A stretch of DNA of 64,000 bases. Origin: Styela clava. Its lineage: Eukaryota. The notes below the pieces were generated by a model that had not been told where the DNA came from, did no database searches, and saw only the letters and a list, made by a program, of their open reading frames with translations. Shown in pieces: positions 9,248 to 63,308 of this stretch (position 1 is the first letter of the stretch; each line of letters starts with the position of its first letter). The position numbers and the translations under genes were made by a program. Where the stretch lies: positions 16,616,001-16,680,000 of the forward strand of contig NC_135253.1 of the NCBI RefSeq assembly GCF_964204865.1. Reading direction: 5' to 3'.

Positions 9248-10672
9248 ATGGCGTTCACCAATTTGGGACTCTTTTGGATTATTCTTGGAGTAGCAATCGT
9301 AAGCGAAGGTAAGTTTATTTTTGGGGTATTTGAGAAAGAACGGTATTTATTGCAATGACTGATTTTATTGGTATCATCAAAATATATGAAGAACAACAAA
9401 AAATGACGGTGAGATGTCGTGATTTTAGATATTTGTATATATTATATGGAAGCTCAAACTTGGCTTTGTGATTTAGGCAGTCATTTCAATTTGTTATTAT
9501 TCCGTATTGCGTATCATCAGGCAAAATATCAAAACGCTATGTCGATCAACTCCTGCGGGACTGGCACGCGTAAAAGCAAGAAAATACCAATATTATATTA
9601 TATAATTTTTAAATAATAAGCTTGACTAATTTGGAAAAACATAAGATGACACTTTTGAAAATTTCGGAATTAGTTGAAGCGTTAAATTTTGTTCAAATCC
9701 GAGGAGCGAAAAACTGCAGTTCAAGTTCACCAACCCTCAAAAAACGCCAGACTCCGAATTCAACCCCTGGTGCTAGCTATTAAATGATTTTGGATAAAAG
9801 CCAAAATTCAAAATTTGGTCAAATGAATCATGCTATTTTTCTCTTCAGCTCAGGCCACGTATCCTCCAACGTGCGACTCAAATGCCGTTTGCGTCGGATA
9901 TTATTCTGGATTCAATTGCTCCTGCAACAGTGGTTACAAAGGAAGCGATGGGGGATGTGTCAACATCAATGAATGCGTAGAGACGCCACAAGTTTGTACA
10001 GAAATTGAAACGTGCAACGATATTATCGGGAGTTACAACTGCACATGTGGTGATATTGACATCATTTGTCACGACCTTGCTGAGTGCATCAACGGCACCA
10101 ATGCAACTTCGTGTGTGTGCAATGCAGGTTACACTGGAAACGGAACCCACTGCGTTGACGAAGACGAATGTGAGGTCGGTTCTCATTTTTGTAACCCTGA
10201 TGCTAACTGCAGCAATACCGTGGGCAGTTACAGCTGCGCATGCCATGACGGTTTTGAAGGTAACGGTTTCTTTTGCATTGATCTGAATGAATGTGATATC
10301 GGAACGCATGACTGCGTTTCCCCGCTCACCTGTAACAATACACGAGGTAGCTTCGATTGCGTTTGTGGCGAAGACGGCTACTGTCACGATAATGGATATT
10401 GCGTTAACCTCGAAAATTCAACCTTCTGTGTGTGCAAAATTGGATACATTGGAAACGGCGTTTTGTGCGGCGATGTAGATGAGTGTGAAGCCGAAAATGA
10501 TTGTCATTCGAATGCATCATGCAAAAACACAGAAGGAAGTTACAGATGTATTTGTAAAGAAGGCTACGGAGGAGACGGAAAGGAATGTAATTTTGCGAGT
10601 GTAATTTCAATTTCCATCGGATTGTTTGTGCTTAGTGTTACATCTTCAATGCTTTCTTATGGCTCTAGCTAA
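9248..10672 (+). CDS. Predicted GPI-anchored EGF / calcium-binding-EGF protein, ~294 aa
   Basis: Exon 1 9248-9308 ([20 protein letters not shown], donor G|GTAAGT), exon 2 9849-10672. About seven EGF modules with cbEGF signatures (NINEC, DEDEC, DLNEC, DVDEC; C.NT.GSY.C). Hydrophobic C-terminus with no cytoplasmic tail. Confidence 0.88.
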
Positions 10673-11451
10673 GATTATTAAAAATAGTTATACAGTTGTA
10701 CAATAGTTTTTAGATAATAATATTAAATACACTGTTATAGTATATTACACTTCTAAGACAACTGTTAGAATTCTCGTGGGGATTGGATTTTTGGTTTCTA
10801 TGATTCGGGTATGATTAACAATCAATTGATAATAGATTATTGAAACTTATGATTTTATTTTAATATAACGCGATTTATTTAATATTTCCAATCTGATATA
10901 TGCTGAACAGTGCATTTATATTGCAGAAATATTTTAATTGGGCAAAAAAATCCTAGTTGATAATTCTATTCGGGTTTGATTTTAGGAAACGGGGTTTGAT
11001 GAAGGTATTTTAAAAGCAGCAACCCCTTAGAAGCGAAGGAAATTAACTTGAAAGTAAAATCATAGGCGACGACTGACATTTCAGGAAACGCAGAACAGTA
11101 ATTAGATATAGATTATAAAACAGTCGTACAATATATATGAACCAGAGATGTAAACCTGCCGAATTTCAAATAAGAGTAGCATGTAAAATGAAGAAAGTAT
11201 CCGCAAATCGAGCTTGGTATACGGCGAATAATCTGAGTTAGACAAGATAAAAATTGTAGATGAATAGAATATGAACCCGTTGTTGTTAAGACTGATTTCC
11301 AACCCTAACCTCAACTGGATAAGTACTAATTTGGTATTTTAAAACGTGGTAGGAGAGTTTTTCTCAAATCTCACATTTTTGTATTAGTGACGGGGGCTTT
11401 GTAGAAAAGATCTCGATAACGGCGTATACTTCAGTAAGATGAACCACTTCC

Positions 11452-12115
11452 TACTGGGAATGGTTAACGGTTACGATTTATTTTAACCGTTAACTGACAT
11501 CTCAGGTACAAATCGTCTTTATAATGTACAATTCTTTCAAAAATGATTACGTCATCGAAAATTTATCTCCTGTGGCGTTTAATTCAAAAGAATATCGCTA
11601 ACTGTATTGGTAAGGAGTAGGACCCAATAAATTTGAAAAATAATTGAAGTACCAAGATTGCTGATTATGAAAATTTGACAATAATTAATTATGAATCAGT
11701 TTTCGGTCGAAACATAGTGTTCACGATTTTATTTCAAAATCGTACATTCAATGTCAACCAACAACTGCGTAGTTGATGCTGTTTTTCAATATATATCTCA
11801 AAGCAGAATTTGCACATCGAATGCTAAAAATTTGTCACATGAATGACATTTAATAAGGAATCGGGTTTTACTAAAATGGTTCTATTTGTCCCAACTACGC
11901 CGCATATCTCTTGCGGCAGAGCGATCACGAAACCACCTCGATTCGTAAATAATTTTGAGCGATACCGAGATGAGGTCACGCAAAATTGCTTTGTAACCAT
12001 TGTGACGTAACAAGCTAAAACTATAGATTATTATGTGAAACGTCACGCTGCGGTTAACCGGTTAATTTTACCCGGTTAACGGTTAAAGTGTTTTCCCCTA
12101 AAATTCCCAGCCCTA
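11452..12115. mobile_element. hAT-like non-autonomous element
   Basis: CTGGGAAT / ATTCCCAGCCCTA ends and clustered (C)GGTTAAC subterminal repeats at both ends. Confidence 0.5.
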
Positions 12116-12392
12116 CATATGTACTTAATCGGAATGGGTCCACTTCTCCATTGGAAGTCGTACTTTTTAAGCTGTAATAAACAAATATACGAGAGTCATA
12201 TATCCGTTTCTCTGCAAGTAGCCTATAAATTTTGGCTGGTCAGTCATTTTTAGGTTTTTATTGAATATTTGTATTTGGTTCACATCAATATGTGCATGTA
12301 ATATATATCTATATAAAAGCTGAAAAATTAAAAAGAAAAAGTCATGACAACACTGAGAACATTTACGGGAAAATGAATGAAAACTAAACACT

Positions 12393-14099
12393 TCAAAGAA
12401 TATTATTTGAACACCATAGAGTCAATATAAACAACACAACGATATTTGATAGGTTATGTGCAATACTCGGAGCGGCACTATTACACGTAAAACTGCCATG
12501 CGTATTCTTGCATATAGTTTCTTTTGTACAATTATGTGTCCCTTCAAAGCACTCATTAACATCTTGGCAATACTGTCCGTCACCAGCAAACCCGATTCCG
12601 CAAACGCAGCCGATTTTCCCCCTTTCGTTCAAGCAGTATGCTGACCCGTGACAAACTTTACCGTTGCAGAAACACTTATAGCTGCCTTGTTCATTCTGAC
12701 AAGTTTCTATTTGTTGACACACACTACCAATGTCGTTACATTCATCAACGTCAATGCATTCCCTACCGTCTCCCATGTATCCTTCAAGGCATCGACATGA
12801 ATGTCCTCCAGGATGATTTTCACAGGCTGCGTTTACGCTGCAAGTGTTTCGTACGTCACAGTCGTTAATGTCAACACATTGATGATCTTGTTTGATAAAT
12901 CCGCTGTTGCAGTTGCAGACTTTCATAGAGCAGTATGCAAAATCCGGACAATCTCTAGATGTTTTGCATTTCTGACTCGAAACTGGTGGAAAGTAAAACA
13001 AATGAAAAATAAAATTGTAGAAACAGAAAATTCAACCAAATTGGAAGCGCGTGAGAAATCTATTAAAACTATTTTAATTCTCTGAAAGGTATAAACTGTT
13101 ATCTCAAAATATCTGCAAGCTTAATTGAAACCACCCGGGTTCAAATATCTCGAGTCCAATATTTACCGAAACCGACCCCACCTGGCCTGTTGGGAATTTT
13201 AAACAACTCTTATCCGAATCATTGAAGTAGGCCAAAAACTGAATTCAATAATATCTTGTCGGGTATGCTATGTGATTAAACTGTTACAAAAATATTGGCA
13301 ACACCAAAGACTCATGCATGCCGATGTAATTACATTTTATTAAAAGAAACTTAAAATTCGATTCCAGCACCGGCGAACTATATAGTTAGACTCCGATAAC
13401 AAATTTTAGGAAATTGGTAGTACAATATAACTCCGACAGAGCAAAACAGGAAAATGCAAAACTTATCGACTCTTAAAGTCTCTTCTAGTGGCAGTCGTCT
13501 TCGAGACAAAAAAATTAAATTGTCATGTCTAAAAGTATGTACGTTCACAATCGCCTATGAGATGTAAGTCCTTATTTGGCGATTACCATTATATTTGCAT
13601 AATGTTACTTACTATTTGATGGGAAGAGATTATGTTATTCCTATTAAATCTTATAGTCACGTGGTTTCGAGTTTAAAATACCTCTTGGCCGCGCGTAAAT
13701 ACTAAGTTGTAACTAAATGATATATAGATATACGATCCAACGACACATTTAATATTTGCTGAAAAGTGATTTAAATTACAAATGATCGTTGATAAACGTT
13801 TATTCACTTTGAATATAATGATGGTGGCATCAATAGCGTATTTCATAATAGATAATCACTGATGATCTCTAGTGCGAGTGCTTTATCTGGCATTAAATAA
13901 TCATAGCACTTTGTCGAGTTCATTCATATATTTCTCCTTAACAATTCATAAATTATTTGAACTTAATAATGGTAATCGAAATGTAACTTGCAGTATTCAT
14001 GTTATATTATGGCTGATTGTAGATATGTGGAAAACACTTACCGGTTAATATTCCAGTAAAAACAATGTAGAGCTTCATTACTGCCCGGGGGCTACACAT
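12393..14099 (-). CDS. Predicted GPI-anchored EGF / cbEGF protein, ~215 aa
   Basis: Exon 1 14099-14042 (MCSPRAVMKLYIVFTGILT, G|GTAAGT), exon 2 12982-12393. DINDC, DVDEC and DVNEC cbEGF motifs. C-terminus NSAAPSIAHNLSNIVVLFILTLWCSNNIL. Confidence 0.87.
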
Positions 14100-16229: not shown

Positions 16230-17412
16230 TTACCAGGAGTAAATATTGATACGAAGAGTGAGAACAGTGAGAAATGCGATTACAAAATGCAAATATGAAG
16301 ATATGTTCATTTTCCCGCTCGAACGTGTCAAGATAAATTGCATAGATCCCACGGCATTATAGCAAAAATTCTGAACGAATAGAGCACATGACTGTCGAGA
16401 TGCACATGATTCAATTGACATATGTTTCACCTCATTTGCACTGTAGCACTTGCAACCAAAATAGCATAACATTGCCGTTTCATTGCAAGCATCAAGGCCG
16501 CTGCAAACGCATTCAATCTCGTTGTACTGTGGAAATGCTAACACAGCTTTCGTACTCAGACAATCTAAAAAGTTGATGCAGTCTCTATCCTCCTGTGTAC
16601 ATTCAAATATATCTTCATAGCAAAAGGTCTCATTACCGTAATAATGACTGGGACAAATGCAGTTGAAGCTTCCGGGTAAATTTTCGCATGCGCGTTCATC
16701 CGGACAATCGTGTCTGTCGTTCAAACATTCATTTACATCGAAACATTTTCCATAATGCTTTTCATATCCTTGGGGGCATTCGCAGCTTTTGGTTCCATTT
16801 CTCATTTCACAAATCATTTCATCTTTACATATTTCTCCATTATCCTCATCACAAACGCAGTGTAATCGTCCATTTATTTTCATGGACGTTTCAAATTGCG
16901 CACATTCTGTGACAGATCGTTTTGACGTCGATGGTGATCCGTCTATGTTTTCTGATTCTGTTTAATGAGAAGTGGGAATTTCTTTTCATTATATAAAAAT
17001 CGGGGAATGAAAAATATATATATACAGTGAAAATAATTAAACTGTATCGGCTTTGGAATGGAAATTATTAAATATATATTTTCATAGGCGTGGCGTTACT
17101 TGATTCAACAATTGGCGGAATACAGCATTTGTGTACAAATTTAAGCTCAAGATGCAATAGGGATAACAGTAAAGGCCCGTATAATAATATTCGGCAAATA
17201 TTTACTATATTTTCTCCTTAGACGCGTAAATATATATTTCACTGCATATGCTCTCTATCGGTAGTTTATTCCCTGCTTAGATGAGAAATTCACTTTGATT
17301 AACCTAGTAAAGCCAAATAGTTTGCTGAATTATCTAATCAAAATATTTACTTGCCTGCAAAACTTCCATATCCCAATATGTAAAGAAAAGTAAGAAGTTT
17401 CAGTAATGACAT
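16230..17412 (-). CDS. Predicted GPI-anchored Cys-rich protein with a cbEGF module, ~261 aa, GC-AG intron
   Basis: Exon 1 17412-17355 (MSLLKLLTFLYILGYGSFA, donor CAG|GCAAGT), exon 2 16957-16230. Contains DVNECLNDRHDC..CENLPGSFNCIC. Tail SSGKMNISSYLHFVIAFLTVLTLRINIYSW. Confidence 0.8.
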
Positions 17413-18695: not shown

Positions 18696-21600
18696 TTAAA
18701 CGAAACTGATGACTTTGGACAAAATGGTGAAAATTACAACAAATAAACCACAAAAATAGTTTAAACGAATCGAATTTGCTGAACAAATGCTATCATCTAC
18801 GCAAACGCATAAATTTTCAGTGGAGCAAGTTGAGCCAATCCCACATTCATTTGCACCACCAGCACATGTAATGGCCGAACAATTGAATCCATCTCCGGCA
18901 TAATTTGTGGAACATTCACAATTTCCATCGATGCATTTGGCATTTTCGTGACAGCCAGAGTTATCTGAACAAGTTTTCCTACAAACAGATCCGACGGAAG
19001 TCCAATCTGAGGCACATGAGCATAGGCTGGATAAGCATTGCGAATTCGGCAGACACGAGGTTGTATCGCTACCGGTACAAGTCTTTTGTGTGCATTCAGC
19101 GGTTGATCCATCGCCCTCCCAATTTGCTGCACATACACATACGCCTTCGTAGCATAAAGCATTAGATGCGCAATCTGTTGCAGCAGTGCAATTTTTTCTG
19201 CATGCTGTCTCAATGGCTGTCCATCCGTCCTCACACTCGCACTTATTTTCATTGCTGCATTTGGAATTCGCGTCACAGTCACTAGATTGAGTACATGTTT
19301 TTTGAACACATGCGCTCTCTCCAGCAATAAAATTAACTCCACAGGAACACTGGAAAGTGCTCAAGCTTGAAGTACAAAATACGCTCGATCCGCATGTTGT
19401 CAATTTATCAGCTAAAGTGCATGTTTTCCCCGCACATGATCCAGTTGTTGCATCAACAGTTGATACGAATCCGCAGTTACAACCGAGCGAAGTTCCAGAT
19501 GTTGCACAATAGGAATTTGTTTCTGTACACTGAGAATTTTGGGTGCAGGTTTTGCGGGTACAGTCCGTTCCAGAAACATCGAAATTCTTTTTACATATGC
19601 AATTTGTTCCGTCGCAATAAGAATTTGCTGAACTGCACAATGAAGCATCAGAAGTACACACTATTTGGCTGCATGCGTTACCGACCTCTTGATAATGTGC
19701 AACACATGCACACTTGTCGTCAGCGTTGCACACAGTGTCAGTGCCACAATTTGTTGCTGCATTACCGCCACAAGCTTTACGGGTACAATCGGCAACTGAT
19801 GCTCCGTCAAAATTAAACTTGCAGGCGCAGTTACTCCCATCACAATATGAGTTTTGATCAGAAGAAATACAGACGGAATCGTCGCCACAAGTAATTTGTA
19901 CACAAGTATTCTCATTAGCAACAAAATTTGCTCTGCAGCTGCACTTGTCATCATTGTCACATGCTGTGTTGGTCCCACAATTTGTTGCCGCATTTCCACC
20001 ACAAGTTTTACTCGTGCACGTCGTTGAGCTTGTATCGTCAAACGTGATTTTACATGTACAGTCACCTGAACTACAATATGAGTTTGGATCTGCCGAAGTA
20101 CAGACACTCGAATCTGTGCCGCAGTCTCGAACGCAGGCTCCATCTTTTACCGCGAATCCATCCGCACATGCACATTTGTCATTTGTATCACATTTAGTGT
20201 CTGCACCACAGTTGTTTGATGCATCTCCTCCGCAATCTTTCAAAGTACAAATAGCAACGTTCGTTCCATCAAAAGTTATTTTGCAAAGGCAATTCGTCCC
20301 ATCACAATAGGAGTTTGAATCAGTGCATAAAGCGGCGTTACCGGTACAGACGATTTGACTGCATGTTCCGTCTGATACCACGTAATTGGCAAGACATGCG
20401 CAGTTGTCACTTCCATCACAAGCTGTGTTTGTCCCACAATTTGTAGCAGCGTTACCCCCGCATGCCTTTTGGGTGCACGTTGCAATATTAGTTCCGTCAA
20501 ATGTTATTTTGCAAAGGCAGTTGGTCCCATCACAATAGGAGTTTGAATCAGTGCATAAAGCGGCGTTACCACCGGAACAGTCGATTTGACTGCATGTTCC
20601 GTCTGATACCACGTAATTAACAGCACAAGCACAGTTGTCACCTCCATCACATGCTGTGTTTGTACCACAATTTGTAGCAGCGTTACCCCCGCATGCCTTT
20701 TGGGTGCATGTTGCAATATTAGTTCCGTCAAATGTTATTTTGCAAAGGCAATTCGTTCCATCGCAATAGGAGTTAGAATCAGTGCATAAAGCGGCGTTAC
20801 CGGTACAGACGATTTGACTGCATGTTCCGTCTGATACCACGTAATTGGCAAGGCATGCGCAGTTGTCACTTCCGTCACATGCTGTGTTTGTCCCACAATT
20901 TGTAGCAGCGTTACCCCCGCATGCCTTTTGGGTGCACGTTGCACTATTATCTCCAACAAATGTTATTTTGCAAAGGCAATTCGTTCCATCGCAATAGGAG
21001 TTAGAATCAGTGCATAAAGCGGCGTTACCGGTACAGACGATTTGACTGCATGTTCCGTCTGATACCACGTAATTGGCAAGGCATGCGCAGTTGTCACTTC
21101 CGTCACATGCTGTGTTTGTACCACAATTTGTAGCAGCGTTACCACCGCACGCCTTTTGAGTGCATGTTTCACTATTACTTCCAACGAATGTTATTTTGCA
21201 AAGACAGTTGGTTCCATCACAATAGGAGTTTGAATCAGTGCATAAAGCGGCGTTACCACCGGAACAGTCGATTTGACTGCATTGTCCATCCGATACAACG
21301 TAATTAATAGCACAAATGCAGTTGTCACTTCCATCACATGCTGTGTTTGTCCCACAATTTGTAGTAGGGTTACCCCCACATGCCTTCTGAGCGCATGTTT
21401 GACTATTAGTTCCATCAAATGTTATTTTGCAAAGACAGTTGGTTCCATCACAATAGGAGTTTGAATCAGTGCATAAAGCGGCGTTACCACCGGAACAGTC
21501 GATTTGACTGCATGTTCCATCCGATACAACGTAATTAATAGCACAAATGCAGTTGTCACTTCCATCACATGCTGTGTTTGTCCCACAATTTGTAGTAGGG

Positions 21601-23269
21601 TTACCCCCGCATGCCTTTTGATCGCATGTTTCCCTATTAGTTCCATCAAATGTTATTTTGCAAAGACAGTTGGTACCATCACAATAGGAGTTTGAATCAG
21701 TGCATAATGCGTCGTTTCCACCACTGCAATCAATTTGAGTACACGCGGCTCCTTCTTCACTGTAATTTACAGCACAGCTACATTCGTTTGACGAAGAACA
21801 CGCGGTTGATGCCCCGCAGGTTGCCGTAGGATCGTCACTTCCAGCCGTACACGCTTTTTTCTCACAACCTGTTGTTGCCGTATCGGGCTGGTAGTTAATA
21901 TTGCAAAGGCATATTGTGTTTGGTACATCGCAGACATCGGCATTTGGTTCTGGGGCGCATTCGGAATCGTCATTACACGTTTCAAGTTGAGCGGATACTG
22001 TAAATTGTAATAAACGTTAAGTTTATTTATTTCAAATGAAAAATTTCATCAACGTAATAATTTTTTCCAGTTTGATTTTGACTTCAGGGTTCGTTTAAAA
22101 CGGTAATTTACATTTGTAGCCGATCACGAGATTACTTTCTCTATTGCGCATCCTTTCATTATTCACGCAATTCGTTTTAGGCCTACTGCAAGTAATTTGA
22201 TCCGGTTCTTCATTTTAGTTTATTGTTTTGTTGCATAGCTTTGTTATTTGACGACAAATGCTGGATTGTATATATATATTGTTTCGGTAGCAAATATTCA
22301 ATATTATGATTGTTCGTCGTAACCAACTGAAGATTCTTAAAAATCCCTTAGCCTATACCAAACACGATGTTTTAATTAAAAGTCGAATCTTTAACTAAAT
22401 ATTTTTATTAGTTTTTGAATTTCATTCCATCTCATTGTAGTTTCTAGTATTGTAGCATAGTCTTATTATTTGAAAACAAATGTTCTTCATTGTTTATGTT
22501 GTTTCGTTAGTAAATATTCATTGTTTTGATTTTTTATCGTAACCAACTGAAGATTTTTTAACAATCCCGTGGCTGGTATACAAAACACAATGTTTTAATT
22601 AAAAATCGATTCCTTAATTAAATATTTTTATTAGATTCGAAATTTCACTCCAATTTAATAAATGTCTAATAATAATTAGAATAAGGAATAATTTTGAATA
22701 ATCAACTAAAATTATATTTAGCAAGAACGCTGAAAGGCAATTTTCAAGTAGCAACTCTCCATTGGATATTTCACATGTATTCGAGTTGCTGGGCTTCCAA
22801 GTTAGGGTTGCTCCACAAAAATGATTTTCCGGCAACTTAAAATCACGAAACAGCAAAATCCACTAATAAGAGTTTCTATATATGTTTGGATATTGGTAAG
22901 ATTTTCAATTGTTGATTACGATTGCCAACCACAATTCTACACGTTTTAAGATTCATGGATTGTGTCAGTCATGCATCAAAACCTATTATAGGTTTGGTTA
23001 TTTCGACTAAAGTATGCATCTATCCATTGGTTTTGTCCCAGTACATATTAGCATTTTATAGTAATTTCAAAGCCTTTAATGGGGCAAATTTACTGTTTGC
23101 TGAGTGAAATTCATCAGTGTTTTAGTAAGTCATCGTAAATATAAGTTTCAGCTATAGGAATACTTTATATAAAATAGTTCAAATAAAAGTCTTTTTCAAT
23201 ATACTCACCTTGATTCCACAAATATGAAAGCACAAATATCCCCAGAACTACAGTTTTGAGGAAATGCAT
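18696..23269 (-). CDS. Large predicted GPI-anchored Cys-rich repeat protein (roughly 28 six-Cys EGF/EB-like modules), ~1120 aa
   Basis: Exon 1 23269-23209 (MHFLKTVVLGIFVLSYLWNQ, G|GTGAGT), exon 2 21997-18696 as a single 3.3-kb frame extending the listed 790-aa ORF upstream in phase. Tail SANSIRLNYFCGLFVVIFTILSKVISFV. Confidence 0.88.
20235..21745 (-). repeat. Coding tandem repeat, 228/231-bp unit, about 6.5 near-identical copies
   Basis: Unit encodes QI(D/V)C..GNAALCTDSNSYCDGTNCLCKITFDG....C.QKACGGN..TNCGTNTACDG.DNC.C..NYVVSDG.CS. Shadow ORF ends are spaced 228 or 231 nt apart. Confidence 0.95.
22231..22635. repeat. Diverged intronic tandem duplication, ~220-bp period
   Basis: AACCAACTGAAGATT at 22321 and 22541, with matching flanks. 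Confidence 0.7.
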
Positions 23270-39132: not shown

Positions 39133-39252
39133 GAATATTACGGCCGTTTCGTCTTTTATACTGGGGCTCCAGACACTTCTCGGAATCTATCTGTAAGTAA
39201 CACCCGATGGAATTTTATGAGTAAAGTTTTCCCCCTGGAGAGAATATTCTAC

Positions 39253-44195: not shown

Positions 44196-44228
<33 letters not shown>

Positions 44229-49921: not shown

Positions 49922-50031
49922 GGCGCTCCCGGAGTATGTGTACCAAGATGACGCACAACCTGAACATAGTATGTGTACCAGGTGAGGGTTCAGGTTGCGC
50001 GCTACTTTGGTACACATACTTCGGGAGCGCC
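49922..50031. mobile_element. 110-bp Merlin-like MITE (upstream of C)
   Basis: GGCGCTCCCG..GTATGTGTACCAA / TTGGTACACATAC..CGGGAGCGCC. Same insertion site as the 45250 and 59900 copies. Confidence 0.7.
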
Positions 50032-51689
50032 ATAAAAATATGCCTTTTGCAAGCTATTTTGTACACACTTTGACCTCATACTTTGAAATAAAATGTTGAC
50101 GTGAGCATCTCGGCATCTGACGTAAGTTTGTTTTGGGGATCATTATAATATAAAACTAAGTCAAAAAGAGTCATATGAGTGTCTATTATGGTGAACGTAT
50201 AAGCCATAATGAGCTAGAAATTTCCAAGCGCATGCGACAGTCACCATACTTTTCCAACTAGTTATTTGTCTATTGCTGAAGGCGTTCACTTTGCATCTGT
50301 TTAAAGCTCTAAGATACAATACCAAGGTCTCAACAAGCCGTTTCATTTGGGGTCCGTTTCTAAAGAAATACATGTGTTGCACAAGCTACAAACTGGACTC
50401 CAGACAAGTAGTCGATGTGATGTACAACCCATTTGAACACGTTATATTGTTTGGGTGGTTTTGTATTCAAGTTGTTGCCTGGACAGGATCCTGCCATATA
50501 AATTTGATATTTTATTAAAATAAAACGCATTGCGGTATAATTTTGTAAAAGTTGTCAACTGATGCCAATTATGATGATCTAATGAATTTGAGCCATGATA
50601 CTTTGCCAATATCAGAAGAGTGGGCGTATCTTAGCTACAAATCCTACTCTGTTGAGCTTAAATCAGATATTTCTACTGGGATGGTTGGCTATGTTGAGTT
50701 TCGCTTTATTCGAGAATAGCACTGGCTATCGGTGTCCAGTTGACTTCATATAGAGAAACTTGCAATATGAAAAGTGGTTGTTGCTAATGTTTTTAAAATT
50801 TTTATTCTTGGAATTATTTGAATACGTTAGTTAAAATGTAACGTTCTTTTTAGTGTCCAGTATTAGCATCGGAGTATGCACCGGCTTATTTTTTTTCAAA
50901 CTTTCTGATTGGAGCTGAAATTCTTAATGAGCAGAAGTTAAGTAAAATTTCTGTAGCAAAATTTCCTGCGGTACAAACTTTCTACGCAAATTTTTTTCAA
51001 TGGAGTAGAAATTTCAAGCGATACCAACTAATATTTTCTATTTTTCGTAGTCTATTATCTAGCTAGATTGTATGGATTTGAAGTTGCAGTCAAATTTATT
51101 TTACACGGCGTGCAATCTTTGAGACAATGAACATTCGAATGTAGCAAGTAGAGTCGAGTTTTGAATAATTCGTAGAAGTATAGAAGTTCCAGACACTTCT
51201 TGGAATCTATCTGTAAGCAACACCTGGGGGAAATTTACGAGTAAACTTTTCACTCTGAAAAGACTATTCTACTTCAAACTCTCGTTTTGCAATAAGCGTT
51301 AGTTAATAAGCAAAAGTTCTGCATTTTTAATTTGCGGATTCGTCTCACCGCAAAATCTCAACATAAAAGTTGTTAACTTTGATATTGGCTGCGTATTTAT
51401 TTTTTTCATAAACTAGATTACGGAAAAAAAACTCTGTATATTGTTTCAACTTTTTTTTTATTAATTGAAGCTGCCATAAAACTTTATACTTGAAATGGGA
51501 TCAGGAAAGATTCCATCAAATCTTTTCCAAGCATTAGTTACTACTAAAATCGTATAAAATAAAGTATATATTGTATTTTCCTAGCAAGTTGAACAAATAT
51601 TCATCTGAAAATATTATTAATAAAATTGCCAAACTCATTGAAAAATTACTGATTTGAATATATATTTCAGCACGCTGTAACGTTAATTA

Positions 51690-53228
51690 TCAATTACTGA
51701 ACCATTTTGCTGCTTTAAACACACAATAGTTGAAAAGAAGTAGAGGGAACGAAAAAACTGTTGAAATTCCTCCACACGTTGCAGTAGTTGTAGTTGCTGT
51801 AGTAGTAGTAGTTGTAGTAGTGGATGCTACGCATGCTGCTTCCGAGGCTTCATAACCAGATTTACATGCACATTTCCCTGTTGAGGTGTTGCATTCCGAA
51901 TTGGCGTCACCATTAGTTGTGCAGTCGGAGGTCGCTGCACATGTTCTGTCAACACAAGCTGTTGCCCCAGCGATCTGATTTGCTGGGCATGCGCACACTG
52001 ATGATACACAGTAGAGAGTGCCGGATCCACAAGCAGATGCGATTGTTGATGTTGTGCATGCTTTGGCTGTACACGATCCAGATGAGCCGTCGGTAGTGGA
52101 AAGAAATCCACAGGCGCATCCGATGGTTCCAGATGAAGAACAATATGAATTAGCTTCGTTTACAACACAATCTCTGTCACCATTGGCGCAGGTTCGACGT
52201 ACACAGGCAGCGTTTGACGTATCGACAAAGTTTGCCTTGCAGTTGCAAACGTCGGTCGTGGGAGCCGTATTGCAGTAACTGTTGGTATCGGAAGGGGTGC
52301 AGTCACCATCACCACTAGCGCATGTCCTTGCTGTGCAGTCAGTATTCGGGGTAGCAGGCTGTAAAATTAGTCATGAAAAATAAATCAATTCTGTATCTTG
52401 TAACTTCATTTGCGAGATAGTTTTGGTATCAACTCGAACTAATGCCAGCTAACACAATGATTATTTCTAGGCGTTTTAACGGAAACAAATTTTAAATAGC
52501 TCTTCAGTTTGCAATCTGCATGATAAAAGATTCTCCGGTGATAAGCTTACTTCAGTTTTGGTTTTACTCGAGGTGAATAAAAATAAATTATATATTTTAA
52601 TATATCTTGAATTTTTTAGTTTTAATCGAATACTTATTCTTTATCCTTACCATATAATTGACATTACACACGCAAAGTGGAGGAGTAGAAGAGTCGCACA
52701 AAGCTGCGTTTGGTTCGCCTGTACATGTACCACCTGCGCCTGAGCAAGTTCCGTCCAATTGACTTAGACCTATTAGTTACAAAAAAATGCCGTCTTTTTT
52801 TATGAATTTATTGTTAATTCGTTATTTTTCAAATTAAAATTTACTACACGATCTGCCAACCGAATCTTTTGACTGCAGACTGAAGTACAAAATTGTTTGA
52901 AAACATTTTAATTTTACTCAAATATTTTTTTCATAAATGATTCGTACAATATTGAATTTTACGACTCAATTATTTTAGGTTTGTGTTTATTTTGGCATTT
53001 CGTCTACATCTGCTATTTTAAAAACTTGTTCAATATTTTGAATCAATAAATGTAGTTTATAAAGGAGAAAACAGGTCAGATGAAATTTTTGCAATCTCAT
53101 TTACATAAAAAATATTTTTATAAATGAATTTAGTGTAAACTAGCTACGAGAATTTTTTTTCAATATTGAAATACTTCACCTCCTCTTGCCATGAGCAAAA
53201 CACACACGATTGAAATCAAAATCTTCAT
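51690..53228 (-). CDS. Tandem family copy D (type-II leader), ~278 aa
   Basis: Exons 53228-53180 (MKILISIVCVLLMARG), 52769-52651, 52358-51690, frame intact. Confidence 0.87.
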
Positions 53229-53880
53229 TCTCTTCGTTTTCGTTTTATTTCTGGATTAAAATTACTCGAGTGCTAGCTGGTTTATTCTGCAAGTACTAAA
53301 TTTAAAATATGTATTAAACTTAAATTGAGTTTTAAAAATTATAAACCTTGAATAGTGATTTTTTGGGGGGATTGCGGGTACTTTATGGAAAAACCTAACA
53401 AAAAACGTAAAGCTCTAGTAATAATACTCTTCGCCCACAATATTATAAAGCAATACTTATTTGATCAAATGCAAAATAAATTGTGGCGCTTATGGCAGCT
53501 AATATTTGCATCTCTTAGTTAGTAATAAAACTTTTTTCATATTTTATGTCGGTTTAAAAATGCCCTCTGAATTGGATATATTGTTGTCAAATTTTTCAGA
53601 TGACAAATAAACGTTTATCAGCGGTATCAGCGGTTTCCAAGCATTTCATACGCAATCTCTTCATAATGGTTTTAAATAGCTTTACTGTTCCGAAAAGATC
53701 AACAATTGATAAGTCAGTATTAGCAAATATGACATTGTTATCTATGACTTGGGCAATATACCAATTGAATCTTACTGGAGAACTTCTGCACCACAACATA
53801 ATATAATACATAACTATATTTATGTTCCATCGGCTCGCTATGTCTGTTGTACTATAGTCTTACAAATATGGTACGGTTCG

Positions 53881-54078
53881 CAACCGTTATATATACTCAT
53901 ATTCGCGTTGATAACTATGGTAAAAAAAAACTGTTATTCCTATTCCCTTCTAATGTTTTTCTTATTTTTTCGTGCGTTTTCAACCGTTATATATACTCGT
54001 ATTCGCGTTAATAACTATGGTAGAAAAAGATTATTATTCTTATTTCCTTAGAATGTTTCTCTTATTTTTTCGTGTGTT
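53881..54078. repeat. ~100-bp tandem duplication
   Basis: CAACCGTTATATATACTC.TATTCGCGTT.ATAACTATGGTA...TTCTTATTTTTTCGTG occurs twice. Confidence 0.8.
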
Positions 54079-56669
54079 TCGCGTGACAACGTAGACGGAT
54101 TCGCACTACTGGATATTTGGATCGCACGAAATGCCCCGTTGAAAAGCGCACCTTGACAGCACAAACCTGATTTTAATTTTTTTTTAATCCTTCGTGGAGA
54201 TCCCTTGAATGCGTTACCCATGTTTCAAAAAGTGTTTAAAGACCTTGTATCAAGTTGGCATGGCAATCTAAAAGGATACACAAGGTATCAACATAACATG
54301 AGCGATGCTGAAAAAAATTCAATTTGTTATTTTTGCCCATCCACCTAAAATTAATTCACGAAATATTGTTACCATATTCATGCTGGTGTTAGAGCCTGAA
54401 TATGCTTAGCTGAAATTATTAGGTTCTATTGTGATCGAATGTGAAATCTGATAACAGGTATATTGGAGGCCTTTCCACTCACCAGTCCTTTTTCCTGTCA
54501 AGTTCAATCGCTCTGAAATATACTATTAGATTTTTATGTTTTGAAAATTACGTGTGGTAGGTACAATGTGTTTTCAATTGAAAAATAAGAGCATTCATTT
54601 CTCTTACCAGTTGGAGAAACGGTATGCTTGTCTCTTGTTGTGTTATTTATTCTTAGTATCTTGGCTGCCATAGAAAACTTCTATAGAAAACATAGGCGGA
54701 TAGTGACGACCGTTAGTATAAAAATAATATATATATGCACAATAGTCTAGTAGCTATGGGATACACATCAACTTAAATTATATTTCAGAATATATCGGCC
54801 AATAGAATTCTAAAATTAGGTTTCAATATTCTACTTATTTTTATTTATAATATCTAAGTTACGGAAATGTTAATCATAAAAGTTGAGAAAAATTGTTGAA
54901 GATAATTTCAGAAAAAATATTACCTTGTTAATATTTACAAAACTAAAACAAGAAGTAATAGTCTTATCGTAGCTGGATCATTTTTTTTAAAATTTGGTCT
55001 CAGTATGTTGATCCCTCGCTGTTGGTACAATACAAGTTTTCTAGAAGTTTTAGTCTGAGCTTAGTTGGAAATTATTAGAAAAAAACTTAAATGTTATTCC
55101 CAATTACCATTCGTATGTCCTTCTCCGTTTAAGGCTTTATCTTGAACATAATTAAATATATTGCAATTAGATTTTAACGCAGTCGTGCTAATGGAATGGG
55201 TAAGCCTGCTCATGAAGTCCGCTATTCGAATGTGTTTTCTTTACTTCTATATTGCGCAAAGCACGGCAATTGGAAAGCATAAGGGCGAGATGTTCTTTTT
55301 ATCCCATGATTACACCAGTTTGTAGAACAATGATTCACTCGTCCAAGCATGAAGAATATTATAATTTAGATTTGGAAGTTGTTTTTAAGTAGAGAAATAA
55401 TTTTGTTAACAAACTATGGATTTTTATAACATTGTTGACGACGTTACGGCGGGGCTTATACGACTTTTACTTTCGTTTATCCGGCAGATTTTCTCTATGA
55501 ATATAAATGTTTTACTCAATAGTTGAAAAATGACATTTATCCGCTTGAATTGATTTCAAAGGAGAATATTTACAAGTAAAGTTGTCTATGAAATTCATGT
55601 AATCGTATCATGCCTCATAGTGTGTTGAACGCGAATTTTGATTTCAAATATAAATTTATAGCTTATGCATATGGTTTTATCCAGAGATTTTTTATTTTCA
55701 TTTACTGCCTGTGTGTATGGATATTCTATGTATCGTAGTGATAAGATTTATATTTAGAGTGGAAATCGAATGAAACCCATGTCATTGGATGATTATTTAA
55801 CAAAACAAATGTATGCGTTATGTATGGTATGGCGCCGGTCACTTGTACAGGTCTTTGGACTCGTAGGTGAAGCGATAACATGGATAAGGGTGGGTGTACA
55901 AAACTGGTCGTACAGGCGAATCCATATGAAAAGTCAACATATGAAAATAAATACAATATACCCTCATTTACAGAGAAATATTCACTTAACCTGGCTTTAA
56001 ATGAGAGGAAGATTTGCGCAGTTGTTTGCTACAAGGTTTTATGCTTACAAATCCAATTTTATTGCGCTCGGCGGTCCAAATAATTTGTAGAAGTCAATTT
56101 TTCTACTTTTGAAATTTTATTCCATGTATATATTTCAAAAAAATTACCGCCGAACTTCGGCGCGTCGACGTAACCTTTAAAGAAAGAACCTTTATGAATT
56201 TACTGTATAGTTTCATCAAGAAACTAAAAATGTGTTATAAAAGATGGAAGTAGGATACTTGTGTGTAGACCCCCGTATATTGATATCAAAATGAACATAG
56301 TTTCACTCTTCAATCAAAAAATAAATGAGCGTGCATCAGTCAGTCGCTGGAGGCTTCTAAAGGTGCGTTTCCAGTACTATGTGTAACGAACACAGATTAC
56401 GGAAAAAAAACTCCGTATATTGTTTCAACTTTTTTATTTATTAATTGAAGCTGCCATAAAACTTTATACTTGAAATGGGATCAGGAAAGATTCCATCAAA
56501 TCTTTTCCAAGCATTAGTTACTACTAAAATCGTATAAAATAAAGTATATATTGTATTTTCCTAGCAAGTTGAACGAATATTCATCTAAAAATATTATTAA
56601 TAAAATTGCCAAACTCATTGAAAAATTACTGATTTGAATATATATTTCAGCACACTATAACGTTAACTA

Positions 56670-58152
56670 TTAATTACTGAACCATTTTGCTGCTTTATAT
56701 ACACCAAGGTTGAAAAGAAGTAGAGGGAAAGAAAAAGCTGTCGAAATCCCTCCAGACGTTGCAGGAGTTGTAGTTGCTGTAGTAGTAGTAGTTGTAGTAG
56801 TGGATGCTACGCATGCCGCTTCCGAGGCTTCATATCCAGATTTACATGCACATTTTCCTGTTGAGGTGTTGCATTCCGAGTTGGCGTCACCATTGGTTGT
56901 GCAGTCGGAGGTCGCTGCACATGCTCTCTCAACACAAGCTGTTGCCCCAGGAATCTGATTTACTGGACATGCGCACTGTGATGATACGCAGTAGAGAGTG
57001 CCGGATCCACAAGCAGATGCGATTGTAGTTGCTGTGCAAGCTTTGGGTGTACACGATCCAGATGAAGTGGAAGCGGAAAGGAATCCACAGGTGCATCCAG
57101 TGTCTCCAGATGTAGCACAATAGGAATTAGCTTCAGTGATAAAACAATCTCTGTCACCATTGGCGCAGGTACGACGTACACAGGAAGTGTGTGACGTATC
57201 AACAAAATTCACTTTGCAGTTGCAAACGTCGGTCGCGGGAGCTGTATTGCAGTAACTGTTGGTATCGGAAGGGGTGCAGTCACCATCACCACCACTGCAT
57301 GTCCTTTCTATGCAGTCATTATCCGGGGTAGTAGGCTGTAAAATTAGACATGAAAAATAAATTAATTCTGTATCTTGTAACTTCATTTGCGAAATAGTTT
57401 TGGTATCAACTGGATCTAATGCCAGCTAACATTATAGCTATTTCTAGGGGTTTGACATGAAGTTGTGTTGGAAAATCTGTTGTACATCACTTTAATACAA
57501 GAATCGAAAACATAATATGTTAAATAGATCTTCAGTTTGCAATTTGCACGATAAAAGATTCTCCGATGATAAGATTACTTCAGTTTTGGTATTACTCGAG
57601 GTGAATGAAAATAATTTATATCTTTCATTATATCTTGAATTTTAAGTCCATTAGCAAAGACTCACATGAATATTTTGATAATTTGAGTGCTCAAGTACTT
57701 TTTGATTATTCTTACCATATAATTGACATTACACACGCAAAGTGGAGTAGGATCAGAGTTGCACGTATTTGCGTTTGGTTCGTTTGAACATGTACCACCT
57801 CCGCCTGAGCAAGTTCCGTCCAATTGACTCAGACCTGTTATAAAAAAAAACTTGCCTTGTCGTCTGGTTCTCAATTTTATTGTTAATTTAATAAGTTATC
57901 GACCTACAATTTAAACGTTTTTTCAATTTCACGATTCAGTTGAATGATGTGCCTGTTTTGGGAATTTGTCTGCATCTACTATTTTAATTCAATTTTTAGA
58001 GTAAATAAATATAGTTTGATAAAGAAGAAATTGAAAACAAAATTGTCTCAAAAAACGACCTTTTTATTAATTTATCTAGTGTTAAGTAATTACTATACTT
58101 CACCTTCTCTTGTCATGAACAAAACACACAGCATAGAAACCAAAACCCTCAT
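56670..58152 (-). CDS. Tandem family copy E, ~277 aa
   Basis: Exons 58152-58104, 57834-57716, 57335-56670, frame intact. Confidence 0.88.
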
Positions 58153-59899
58153 TTTAATTGTTGTTAGGATTGATGAATCTTCGAATATTCGTCGATTTAT
58201 GCTGTAATATTTGAAACAGAAATTTAGTATTATGGATTATTAACAAAGAAATTCCCCGTCCTGTCTCCCTCACGAAAATTTCGACGAAGCCTATTTCTAT
58301 CATATCCCCGCGCGATTAACTTTTTAAAATTACTTTGATAAATAATTAGTTGTCAGGGTTAGTTCATTTATTTATGTTTATAATAATAACAAATTGATAG
58401 CATTTATTTTGGATGTTTCAGAATTCATCTTCGACCAAGGCATTGGTTAAGCAGCCCCTGGTAAATACATAGCTATCATGCTATGGCGAACAGAATCTTT
58501 CTAACTCGGCATTGCCCTACCATGTTATTAAAACAGTAAATATATTTATTGTCTTAATGTTTAATTTTTTTTAAGATTATAAAAACAAAAATAATCCAGA
58601 TGTAACGAGTCGCGTAAACTGCCGGTTCATAATCGGCGGCAAAAAACAAAGTCAGACAATGGCAATGTTCATGTCAACTTCATTTTTCGTCTGATTAAGT
58701 TATGGTAGATAAACTATTCTATATATTGTTTACATAAAAAGCATATGTTTATAAATCAATTAAATTGGATTCCCAAACAATAATCCGTTTCAAAACCGGT
58801 TCGCTTACAGTTTACACTATATATCTACAAATTCCAACTTTGTTAAGACGACATCATATGACTATTCCTGCATTGAGTATGGTTCAAGTTACCATTGCTC
58901 ATTGAATATATTCAAGACATATTGGGATACGAATAACTATACGAATTTTAGCGTGAGAACGACGAACGGTAAGAAAGTATGTTGATTGAAAAAATTATTA
59001 TACTCACCCAATCTCGCAATGTTATTCAACGGGTAAATATCTTCAACCGAATGCTTCATTTGATGATAGTTTGCAGTTTTTATACTGAATCACCGCAGAA
59101 AAAGATTCCTTTGGATGAATGAAAGAGAATACTATTTGTTTGGGGACTAGCGACTTTCGTTTATAACCAAAGCACTCTTTCCGATATGTTAACCCGTTTG
59201 GTTGCAATACCTAATTTACATATCGTCAACGACATTTTCGTCTTTTGATTAAGGGCAATGAATTCTCTGATATTATTACCACAAGCCATATCAACCAAGT
59301 CCGTGTAACTTTTGGGGTTTTCAGTATTTTAGCATCATCTATTTATACAACTCACAGTTTGTTAAAATATTCATATTAGGTCGAACGTTTATGCATAAAA
59401 TAATACTATCGCATAATATCAAATGAGAATAATTGTTTCACAATATCGCTTCAAAATGGCGACGTTCACACGAACGAAGTTGTTACTAGACAAGGATTTC
59501 ATTAACTCTCCTTCGAGAAGATTAAATTTAATGTAAGGGTTTTTGACAGTTGTTTCATGTGCCACGTGTTGTTATTCGGTTGCCATTCAACTTTCAGCGT
59601 CAGAATACCGAGTCTGTAATGGAATATTGTAATGATTAGCAGACGAACACGATACGCGCGATAATACTTGTTCGATGCTAGTCCTTTTATGAAATACCAC
59701 TTACGACTGTTGTTATTCAAATGAGATAACGGTCGTAGGGAAAAATAAATGAAACGCTGGGATTTAGGTGGGTGCGATATTATGTTGTACTGAAATGCTG
59801 AATTTCCTTTCAACATTTAGTGTATTAGAATGGAGTATTTATTATTATAATTTACACTTCTGTATCTCGTATGTTTTATTTTTATCGTAATATATATAT

Positions 59900-60009
59900 G
59901 GCGCTCCCGGAGTATGTGTACCAAGATGACGCACAACCTGAACATATTATGTGTACCAGGTGAAGGTTCAGGTTGCGCGCCACCTTGGCACACATACTTC
60001 GGAAGCCCC
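59900..60009. mobile_element. 110-bp Merlin-like MITE (upstream of E)
   Basis: Same element at the same site as the 45250 and 49922 copies. Confidence 0.7.
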
Positions 60010-61682
60010 ATATAAATATGCCAAAAGCTATTTTGAACAAACTTTGACCTCATAATTTGAAATAAAATGTTGACGTGAGCATTTCGGCATTTGATGTACG
60101 TTTATTTTTGAAATCATTATAATATAAAATTCTGTCAAAAATCATGTTTAGCACACATTTGGAACAACAACATATGAGTGTCTTCTATGGTGAACGTATA
60201 AGCTATAATGAGCTAGAAATTTCCAAGCGCATGCGACAGTCACCATACTTTTCCAACTAGTCATTTGTCTATTGCTGAAGGCGTTCACTTTGCATCTGTT
60301 TAAAGCTCTAAGATACAATATCAAGGCCTCAACAGGCCGTTTCGTTTGGGGTCCGTTTCTAAGGAAATACCTGTGTTGCACAAGCTACAAACTGGACTCC
60401 AGACAAGTAGTCGATGTGATGTACAACCCATTTAAACACGTTATATCGTTTGGGTGGATTTGTATTCAAGTTGTTGCCTGGACAGGATCCTGCTATATAA
60501 ATTTGATATTTTATTAAAATAAAACGCATTGCGGTATAATTTTGTAAAAGTTGTCAACTGATGCCAATTTTGATGATCCAATGAATTTGAGCCATGATAC
60601 TTTGCCAATATCAGAAGAGTTGGCGTATGTTAGCTACAAATCCTACTCTGTTGAGCTTAAATCAGATATTTCTACTGGGATGGTTGGCTATGTTGAGTTT
60701 CGCTTTATTCGAGACTAGTACTGGCTATCGGTGTCCAGTTGACTTCATATGGAGAAACTTGCAATATGAAAAGTAGTTGTTGTTACTGTTTTTAAATTTT
60801 TTATTCTTGGAATTATTTGAATACGTTAGTTAAAATGTAACGTTCTCTTAAGTGTCCAGTATTAGTATCGGAGTATGCACCGGCTAATTTTTTTCAAACT
60901 TTCTGATTGGAGCTGAAATTCTTAATGAGCAGAAGTTAAGTAAAATTTCTGTAGCAAAATTTTCTGCGGTACAAACTTTCTACGCAAATTTTTTTCAACG
61001 GAGTGAAAATTTCAAGCGATACCAACTAATATTTTCTATTTTTCGTAGTCTATTATCTAAATTGTATGGATTTGAAGTTGCAGTCAACTTTATTTTACAC
61101 GGCGTGCAATCTTTGAGATAATAAACATTCGAATGTAGCAAGTAGAGTCGAGTTTTGAATAATTCGTAGAAGTATAGAAGTTCCAGACACTTCTTGGAAT
61201 CTATCTGTAAGCAACACCTGGGGGAAATTTACGAGTAAGCTTTTCAATCTGAAAAGAATATTCTACTTCAGACTCTCGTTTTGCAATAAGCGTTAGCTAA
61301 TAAGCAAAAGTTCTGCATTTTTAATTTGTGAATTCGTCTCACCGGAAAATCTCAACATAAAAGTTGTTAACTTTGATATTGGCTGCCTATTTATTTTTTT
61401 CATAAACTAGATTACGGAAAAAAACTTTGTATATTGTTTCAACTTTTTTTTTATTAATTGAAGCTGCCATAAAACTTTATACTTGAAATGGGATCAGGAA
61501 AGATTCCATCAAATCTTTTCCAAGCATTAGTTACTACTAAAATCGTATAAAATAAAGTATATATTGGATTTTCCTAGCAAGTTGAACAAGTATTCATCTG
61601 AAAATATTATTAATAAAATTGCCAAACTTATTGAAAAATTACTGATTTGAATATATATTTCAGCACACTATAACGTTAATTA

Positions 61683-63308
61683 TCAATTACTGAACCATTT
61701 TGCTGCTTTATACACACAAAAGTTGAAAAGAAGTAGAGGGAAAGAAAAAGCTGTTGAAATTCCTCCACACGTTGCAGTAGTTGTAGTTGCTGTAGTAGTA
61801 GTAGTAGTTGTAGTAGTGGATGCTACGCATGCTGCTTCCGAGGCTTCATAACCAGATTTACATGCGCATTTTCCTGTCGAGGTGTTGCATTCCGAGTTGG
61901 CGTCACCATTGGTTGTGCAGTCGGAGGTCGCTGCACATGCTCTCTCAACACAAGCTGTTGCCCCAGGGATCTGATTTACTGGACATGCGCACTGTGATGA
62001 TACGCAGTAGAGAGTGCCGGATCCACAAGTAGATGCGATTGTAGCTGTTGTGCATGCTTTGGGTGTACACGATCCAGATGTAGCGTCGGCATCGGAAAGA
62101 AATCCACAGGTGCATCCGGTGGTTCCCGTTGTAGCACAATAAGAATGAGCTTCGTTGATAAAACAATCTCTGTCACCATTGCTGCAGCTACGACGTACAC
62201 AGGCAGTGTGTGACGTATCAACAAAGTTATTTTTGCAGTTGCAAACGGCGGTCGTGGGAGCCGTATTGCAGTAACTTTCTGGTTCGGTGCAGTCACTAGC
62301 ACCACTAGGGCATGCTTTTGCTTCGCAGTCAGTAGTTGCGCCATTGGGCTGTAAAATTAGTCATGAAAAATAAATTAATTCTGTATCTTGTAACTGCATT
62401 TGCAAAATAGTTTTGGTATCAACTGGATCTAATGCCAGCTAATACCATAGCTATTTCTAGGGGTTTGACATAGAGTTGTGTTAGAAAATCTGTTGTACAT
62501 CACTTTAATACAAAAATCGAAAACATAATATGTTAAATAGCTCTTCAGTTTGCAATCTGCATGATTAAAGATTCTCCGGTAATGAGCTCACTTCAGTTTT
62601 GGTATTACTTGAGGTGAATGAAAATAAATTATATCTTTCGTTATATCTTGAATTTTATTGTTTAAGCTGAGTCCATTAGCAAAAACTCACATAAATATTT
62701 TGATAATTTGAGTGCTCAAGTACTTTTTGATTATTCTTACCGTATAATTGACATTACACACGCAAAGTGGAGTAGGAGTAGTAGAATCACACGTATCTGC
62801 GTTTGGTTCGCCTGTACATGTACCACCTGCGCCTGAGCAAGTTCCGTCCAATTGACTTAGACCTGTTAGTAACAAAAAAATTGCCGTCTTTTTCATGAAT
62901 TTATTGTCAATACGTTATTTCTAAATAAAACTTTACTACACAATCTGACAACTGAATCTTTTGACTGCAGACTAAAGTATAAAATTGTTTTAAAAGTTTT
63001 AAATTTTACTCATAAATGATTCCTACAATATTGAATTTTACGACTCAATTATTTTAGGTTTGTGTTTATTTTGGCATTTTGACTACATCTGCTATTTTAA
63101 AAACTTATTCAATATTTTGAATCAATAAATGTAGTTTTGTAAAGGAGAAAACAGGTCAGATGAAATTTTTGCAATCTCATTTACATAAAGAATATTTTTA
63201 TAAATGAATTTAGTGTAAACTAGGTACGAGAATTTTTTTTCAATATTGAAATACTTCACCTCCTCTTGCCATGAGCAAAACACACACGATTGAAATCAAA
63301 ATCTTCAT
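61683..63308 (-). CDS. Tandem family copy F (type-II leader), ~278 aa
   Basis: Exons 63308-63260, 62862-62741, 62348-61683, frame intact. Confidence 0.87.

What the first reader, a model, noticed from the sequence alone, without database searches (positions are those of the whole stretch)
9248..63308. Ten-gene cluster sharing one architecture, with EGF arrays packed into single exons
Seen: all ten genes have a 49-61-nt signal-peptide exon, a phase-1 first intron, Cys-rich modules and a terminal hydrophobic stretch with no cytoplasmic domain. In four genes the whole ectodomain (up to 3.3 kb) is one exon. Known: metazoan EGF modules are usually encoded by separate phase-1/1 exons. Inference: the cluster expanded locally from an intron-poor ancestor, with cbEGF genes as the older layer and the A-F array as the youngest, and forms a co-located GPI surface-coat repertoire.
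Basis: partly seen in the sequence, partly recalled or inferred. Interest (0 to 1): 0.7.

Follow-up and report, generated by a model that had tools for sequence, protein, structure and literature searches.

The report
Two sea-squirt surface-protein families, one locus
Ten spliced, transcribed sea-squirt genes encode cysteine-rich proteins predicted to be lipid-anchored on the cell surface, but they belong to two separate families rather than one, and the six youngest copies are patchworks whose outermost modules differ most, likely through exchange of pieces between copies.

Summary
The ten genes are real (Styela clava by database hits). All have a signal exon, a phase-1 intron and a hydrophobic C-terminus that passes a hand-made GPI rule (11 of 11 genes, against 41 of 955 non-coding frames). 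RNA-type contigs confirm the introns of G1-G4 and F and cross the stops of G1-G4, D and E unspliced; no ZP or transmembrane exon was seen. The single-ancestor story fails. G1-G3, with an eleventh gene (G0) just outside the window, are calcium-binding EGF genes: 23 of 23 of their modules match unlinked EGF genes better than G4 or A-F. G4 and A-F carry a divergent six-cysteine module cassette shared with a gene on contig C8. Multi-EGF exons occur at other loci too, up to 9.6 kb, and uromodulin is a published precedent. What stays interesting: A-F is a mosaic array whose two outer modules differ 13-22% where flanking DNA differs 5% (pN/pS 1.18, positive selection unproven); A-F probably gained an intron; G0-G2 share a fused half-EGF/EGF module, and G0/G1 an odd cysteine count conserved in orthologs. 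The scan had not noted this on other DNA.

The parts
9248..10672 (+). G1: exons 9248-9308 and 9849-10672; 294 aa; 5-Cys EGF, two half-cbEGF/EGF compounds, two cbEGF, GPI-type tail
   Evidence: (540-nt GT-AG joint in X5)
12393..14099 (-). G2: exons 14099 (or 14078)-14042 and 12982-12393; EB-like module, cbEGF, compound, half cbEGF, GPI-type tail
   Evidence: (X5 contig 18 covers both exons)
16230..17412 (-). G3: exons 17412-17355 and 16957-16230; GC-AG intron; divergent cbEGF gene, GPI-type tail
   Evidence: (joint in X1 and X6)
18696..23269 (-). G4: exons 23269-23209 and 21997-18696 (3302 nt); 1120 aa, 28 six-Cys modules: alpha, (beta gamma)x10, delta, epsilon, zeta, 4 more; GPI-type tail
   Evidence: (joint in X1)
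33553..35140 (-). Array gene A: 35140-35092, 34717-34599, 34206-33553; 273 aa
40049..41510 (-). Array gene B: 41510-41462, 41187-41069, 40702-40049; identical to XP_077968335
46804..48263 (-). Array gene C: 48263-48215, 47951-47845, 47454-46804; identical to XP_077968301
51690..53228 (-). Array gene D: 53228-53180, 52769-52651, 52358-51690
56670..59037 (-). Array gene E: 5'-UTR exon ending 59008, then 58201/58152-58104, 57834-57716, 57335-56670
   Evidence: 806-nt joint in X1
61683..63308 (-). Array gene F: 63308-63260, 62862-62741, 62348-61683
   Evidence: 392-nt joint in X5
62349..62740 (-). Phase-0 intron inside module alpha (one in each of A-F), absent at the same codon in G4 and the C8 gene; probable intron gain
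46528..63711 (.). Two-gene duplication: 46528-53628 (C, D) matches 56394-63711 (E, F) at 89.8%

Best explanation
The locus holds two neighbouring gene families that likely arose separately and are predicted to make GPI-anchored, disulfide-rich surface rods: an older calcium-binding EGF family (G0-G3) and a six-cysteine-module family (G4, A-F) related to a gene on contig C8. Shown: gene structures, splicing of G1-G4 and F, the module series (C8 = alpha beta gamma delta epsilon zeta; G4 = alpha (beta gamma)x10 delta epsilon zeta plus four; A-F = alpha gamma delta epsilon zeta plus a Thr-rich stalk), and the mosaic divergence of A-F. Inferred: the signal peptide takes each protein into the ER, the last 24-29 residues are exchanged for GPI (candidate omega G1 N268, G2 N180/S181, G3 S232, G4 S1093, A-F the S/C before GG), and the rod stands on an exposed cell surface as a coat or adhesion/recognition layer. 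G4 grew by unequal crossing-over inside one exon, which needs no introns. A-F spread by tandem duplication. Gene conversion likely homogenises the membrane-proximal modules while the distal modules keep or swap older variants, as expected if the tip meets a varying outside partner. The A-F ancestor probably lost module beta and gained a phase-0 intron.
For: Two origins: 23 of 23 G0-G3 modules score higher against 59 unlinked Styela EGF modules than against 64 G4/A-F/C8 modules. A module tree puts them with the unlinked EGFs on a 97/92 branch. Genome searches with F and G4 hit only the array, G4 and C8; G2's best hits are G0 and G1. GPI: 11 of 11 genes and 3 of 3 orthologs pass the rule; the anchorless C8 protein fails; null 41 of 955. 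The A-F tail has dN/dS 0.34. Contigs cross the stops of G1-G4, D and E. Mosaicism: nearest paralog changes from module to module and nearby informative sites are more compatible than shuffled ones (0.246 vs 0.428, p=0.0005). C/E modules 1-2 have pN 0.218 against 0.050 intergenic, modules 3-5 0.058. All 30 module Cys are kept in six of six copies.
Against: No real GPI predictor or experiment; my hydrophobicity threshold (1.75) was set after seeing the tails, just under gene E's 1.77. G1 lacks a polar spacer and A-F end in a basic octapeptide. The tail dN/dS interval reaches 1.15. The tree has 43 columns and had not converged; G4 modules 25 and 27 sit weakly (67/94) beside the EGF clade and G2's first module has EB-type spacing, so an old shared local origin or exchange is not excluded. 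G3's best genome hits are the C9 array, not G1. In D/F the contrast is weaker (modules 3-5 pN 0.091). Synonymous sites are raised as much as replacement sites (C/E pS 0.185). Joint tables were truncated (22 and 2 rows not shown). Tissue and function are untested.
Confidence: 0.65

Rival explanations
1. One reading: all ten genes descend from one local intron-poor ancestor and form a co-regulated GPI coat.
For: Same layout, adjacency and tail type; G2's first module and G4's last modules share Cys spacing and sub-threshold EB hits; G4 modules 25 and 27 are unplaced.
Against: 23 of 23 module test, the 97/92 split, the C8 relative, and unrelated genes between G0 and G1. A phase-1 intron after a signal exon is common in secreted metazoan proteins (own knowledge) and also present in C8.
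Confidence: 0.15
2. The tails, above all in A-F, are weak transmembrane anchors with a short basic cytoplasmic stub, or the proteins are cleaved and shed into mucus or tunic.
For: A-F have two Lys within 8 residues after the hydrophobic stretch, as in the positive-inside rule; G4's 19-residue Kyte-Doolittle mean is 2.37.
Against: A-F 19-residue means are only 1.3-1.8 with Pro and Asn inside; G2 and G4 end on the hydrophobic run; small omega triplets sit 24-29 residues from the end in all genes and orthologs.
Confidence: 0.15
3. The A-F pattern is neutral: conversion tracts fall by chance and the distal loops are merely unconstrained.
For: Non-Cys pN/pS for modules 1-2 is 1.18 (0.82-1.76), and synonymous sites are raised too.
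Against: Divergence peaks on the same exons in both duplicate pairs while the 4% intron between them in C/E is spared; 53 of 79 non-Cys columns vary in modules 1-2 against 35 of 107 in modules 3-5; module 1 alone gives 1.53 (0.96-2.76).
Confidence: 0.35
4. A-F transcripts are diversified by splicing between neighbouring copies.
For: Three forward cross-copy joints at exact exon ends; the older annotation lists isoforms X2-X4 with two signal types on one body.
Against: Four other joints run backwards, which cis-splicing cannot do, so best-match placement of other individuals' mosaic alleles explains all seven; A and B were not in the laid stretch.
Confidence: 0.08

Closest known systems
Plasmodium Pfs25/Pvs25/Pfs28 ookinete coat proteins
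   Same: Small tandem-EGF proteins; that they are GPI-anchored coats is recalled. Top fold hits for the gene C model (Foldseek E 2e-3, VIA Z 3.3, rmsd 2.1 over 38 residues).
   Different: Matches are weak (TM 0.12, one module); no sequence relationship. An analogy, not membership.
Uromodulin (UMOD)
   Same: GPI-anchored, with EGF-like domains; a reference title in PMC6014484 states that one exon encodes three EGF-like domains (passages read). G1 model matches it at E 1e-8.
   Different: UMOD has D8C and ZP domains and more exons; none here.
Ascidian vitelline-coat HrVC120/HrVC70, HaVC80, CiVC57
   Same: Ascidian tandem-EGF surface proteins; HrVC70 is polymorphic at restricted sites and a candidate for allorecognition (PMC9265791, passages read).
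   Different: They carry a ZP domain (and a transmembrane segment in CiVC57); no ZP in these genes.
Bivalve six-Cys repeat proteins (Mercenaria XP_053384606, Mya WAR02178, Dreissena KAH3793479)
   Same: Cys repeats and a tail passing the same GPI rule; profile hits E 1.5e-5 to 7.8e-4.
   Different: Weak hits that may be convergent; a yeast and a prokaryotic protein score similarly. No known function.
Styela clava LOC120328339 (XP_039250733, contig C8)
   Same: Same signal-exon boundary and the alpha-zeta cassette in one 735-nt exon; 44% identity.
   Different: Continues through separate exons into cbEGF, EGF and TSP1 and has no GPI tail.

Membership tests
GPI-anchored proteins | N-terminal signal peptide | tested here: met
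   9-residue hydropathy 2.2-3.5 in the first 30 aa of all ten; no SignalP available
GPI-anchored proteins | Small omega and omega+2, 20-30 aa propeptide with a hydrophobic run (PMC7125958, passages read) | tested here: met
   11 of 11 genes vs 41 of 955 null frames; threshold set after seeing the data
GPI-anchored proteins | About 10 hydrophilic then about 20 hydrophobic residues | tested here: inconclusive
   Fits G2-G4; G1 has no polar spacer; A-F end in a polar, basic octapeptide
GPI-anchored proteins | No downstream transmembrane or cytoplasmic exon | tested here: met
   Contigs cross the stops of G1-G4, D and E; not shown for A, B, C, F; tables truncated
GPI-anchored proteins | PI-PLC release or GPI on the omega residue | not testable with these tools
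   needs bench work
Calcium-binding EGF proteins | EGF_CA above the Pfam cut-off, G0-G3 | tested here: met
   105, 120, 78 and 37 bits vs 27
Calcium-binding EGF proteins | EGF_CA above the Pfam cut-off, G4 and A-F | tested here: not met
   no EGF_CA hit for G4, A, C, F or P0002
EB module (PF01683) | Score at or above 24.3 | tested here: inconclusive
   G4 C-terminus 24.1, G2 22.2, C8 14.7, A-F none; only the six-Cys half of the profile matches
EGF fold (G4/A-F modules) | EGF-type hairpin fold and 1-3, 2-4, 5-6 disulfides | tested here: inconclusive
   Model pLDDT 69.7 with two hairpins per module; best Z 3.3; pairing not readable
VC70/VC120 ZP proteins | ZP domain | tested here: not met
   no ZP hit in the proteins scanned; transcripts end after the tail
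Metallothionein (older RefSeq label) | Metallothionein profile, no signal peptide | tested here: not met
   no hit at E<=10; signal peptide and tail present
Class 1-1 modules (PMC3927616, passages read) | Each module flanked by phase-1 introns | tested here: not met
   not in G0-G4 or A-F; a single-cbEGF exon does follow the cassette in C8

The most novel reading that the evidence does not exclude
A-F is a previously unrecognised ascidian recognition repertoire: GPI-anchored rods whose membrane-distal modules are reshuffled between tandem copies by exon-limited gene conversion and kept diverse by balancing selection (microbe, parasite or allo-recognition), beside a conserved cbEGF family that cross-links into a coat through an unpaired N-terminal cysteine.
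Probability: 0.2. Interest if true: 0.7.

Novelty: new member of a known kind. Interest (0 to 1): 0.4.

Why it matters
The headline, EGF arrays in single exons from one ancestor, is ordinary and partly wrong. The locus is still a clean, testable case of a styelid surface-protein family with a tip-to-base diversity gradient, a candidate recent intron gain with two intronless relatives, and a conserved EGF variant. It also corrects a misleading 'metallothionein' label. If the tip diversity proves selected, it adds a candidate recognition locus in a solitary ascidian.

Tried and rejected
No run was on record as RNA; the RNA-type runs are guesses, supported by spliced joints that the DNA run X10 lacks. 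Contig depth was not used to rank genes; the A-F exon bins were deep in X1 and X5 and near zero in X6 and X9, while G3 was covered best in X6: a weak hint only. Transposon origin of the A-F intron: matches only its six copies. Direct repeat at the intron ends: p 0.01-0.2 over six non-independent copies, not established. The tree could not root module alpha. No homolog of G4 residues 780-1099 among proteins of 604-1924 aa. ESM Atlas gave no answer. A G1 dimer prediction was not run, so dimer formation is untested. Fold searches of the A-F model gave nothing at E<=0.001 or Z>=5. Literature: searches found 0 papers; listings showed none on these genes. No supplements were read; Styela expression tables in supplements or subscription journals could name these genes. 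No related genome was available for synteny.
Full report
Setting. The window is G000:C4:16616001-16680000. Array proteins hit only Styela clava records, and my models of B and C are identical to RefSeq proteins. An older annotation calls array products 'copper metallothionein 2-like' isoforms, which no Pfam hit supports.

Observation. Ten Cys-rich frames give ten complete models. G1-G4 have two coding exons, the second 824, 590, 728 and 3302 nt. A-F have three (49, 107-122, 651-669 nt; phases 1 and 0). I laid 3 RNA-type runs and 1 DNA run on 8800-24000: the G1 intron is joined in X5, G2's two exons lie on one X5 contig, G3's GC-AG intron is joined in X1 and X6, G4's in X1, and none is listed for the DNA run. 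Contigs pass all four stops unspliced. On 44300-64000 (C-F only, 4 RNA-type runs) F's second intron is joined directly, seven joints link homologous exon ends of different copies (four run backwards), contigs cross the D and E stops, and an 806-nt 5'-UTR intron precedes E's signal exon.

Tails. Using the definition in PMC7125958 (passages) I wrote a rule; 11 of 11 genes, 3 of 3 G1 orthologs and 3 of 3 bivalve look-alikes pass, the C8 protein fails, and 41 of 955 non-coding frames pass. The threshold was chosen after seeing the tails. G1 lacks a spacer and A-F end in a basic octapeptide, so GPI is likely but not shown.

Two families. Pfam finds cbEGF in G1-G3 and G0 only. G0 is a 50% identical G1 paralog just upstream of the window with the same two-exon plan. 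G0, G1 and G2 contain a ten-Cys compound: a cbEGF cut after its fourth Cys and followed at once by an EGF (regular-expression hits in G0 x2, G1 x2, G2, the three orthologs x2 and one other of 32 proteins; G3 has a looser version). The G1 model (pLDDT 76.4) shows the half module without its second hairpin; the pairing itself is inferred. G0, G1, P0008 and P0032 have 37 ectodomain Cys because the first EGF has five; P0007 has 38. G4 and A-F instead share modules with a C8 gene whose cassette lies in one exon and continues into cbEGF, EGF and TSP1 exons. All 23 G0-G3 modules match unlinked EGFs better than this family, two of them by small margins, and an 80-row tree separates the sets at 97/92, with G4 modules 25 and 27 unresolved and G4 modules 6-15 and 28 and the half modules left out.

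Single-exon arrays. In 11 other loci chosen for EGF hits, 42 of 52 EGF-bearing frames hold one EGF, 2 hold two and 8 hold three or more; a C9 frame of 3217 aa holds 75 cbEGF motifs. By eye none of those other multi-EGF frames ends in a hydrophobic tail, so ectodomain plus anchor in one exon is particular to G0-G4 among the loci viewed. Unequal crossing-over needs no introns (PMC3927616, passages) and explains G4's 231-nt repeat.

The array. C-D and E-F are one duplicated block with 170 differences in 3414 intergenic bases. Against this 5%, C/E modules 1-2 differ at 21.8% of replacement and 18.5% of silent sites, modules 3-5 at 5.8% and 7.0%; D/F give 13.9% and 13.4% against 9.1% and 13.3%. The C/E intron between the two variable exons differs 4%. 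Nearest paralogs change along the gene and site compatibility is clustered (p=0.0005). Pooled non-Cys pN/pS for modules 1-2 is 1.18 (0.82-1.76). This is a mosaic with a tip-to-base gradient; positive selection is plausible, not shown. Proteins from the older annotation carry yet other module variants.

Intron. A-F have a phase-0 intron inside module alpha that G4 and C8 lack at the same codon. No other module has an intron there, and alpha of A-F scores closer to C8 (up to 154) than to G4 (up to 90), which favours one gain over two losses; the tree cannot root it and the intron's source is unknown. I put gain at about 70%.

Comparison and verdict. The A-F model resembles EGF coats such as Pfs25 only weakly; G1 matches NELL, Notch and uromodulin EGFs. 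Outside Styela the array profile finds 7 weak hits among 1.84 billion proteins, three of them bivalve proteins with the same layout. The locus is two co-located, probably GPI-anchored families of a known kind, with an undescribed mosaic array as its best feature. Earlier scan notes show other fast-evolving tandem arrays in this genome and nothing on these sequences. Interest 0.4.

Noticed in passing
G000:C4:16612093-16613405 (L010:972-2284, +): G0, an eleventh two-exon cbEGF gene with a 61-nt signal exon and GPI-type tail, 50% identical to G1.
   Followed up: yes
L023:1098-2700 onward (G000:C8, about 16.873-16.878 Mb): LOC120328339: the six-module cassette in one exon, then cbEGF, a stretch without Pfam hit, EGF and TSP1; no anchor.
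   Followed up: partly
G000:C9:1847340-1856990 (L044-L045): A 3217-codon open frame with 75 near-identical cbEGF motifs, apparently one 9.6-kb exon.
   Followed up: partly
G000:C3, about 18.630-18.638 Mb (L049-L050): Four tandem ~300-codon multi-EGF frames, near-identical, beside single-EGF exons.
   Followed up: no
window 961-2958 (+): A 2-kb very acidic open frame with no Pfam hit, probably one exon of a gene lying between G0 and G1.
   Followed up: no
window 3923-6123 (+): FKBP-type prolyl isomerase gene fragments (PF00254 hit).
   Followed up: no
window 16958-17354 (-): G3 uses a GC-AG intron, joined in two runs.
   Followed up: yes
window 53180-53628 and 63260-63711: D and F share a 5' region and signal exon unlike those of A, B, C and E (intron 1 about 36% different), so the array has two promoter types.
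   Followed up: partly
L038:786-6377 (+): An intact 1864-codon retrotransposon-like frame between similar flanks about 20 kb past the array (class judged from recall, no family search).
   Followed up: no
L042:5645-6373 and 9293-10000 (-): Two near-identical frames that look like T-box C-terminal exons (recalled, not tested) next to the C8 gene.
   Followed up: no
window 11335-12348; 45290-45330, 49920-50030, 59900-60030: High-copy genomic repeats in intergenic DNA, with many contigs in DNA and RNA-type runs.
   Followed up: no
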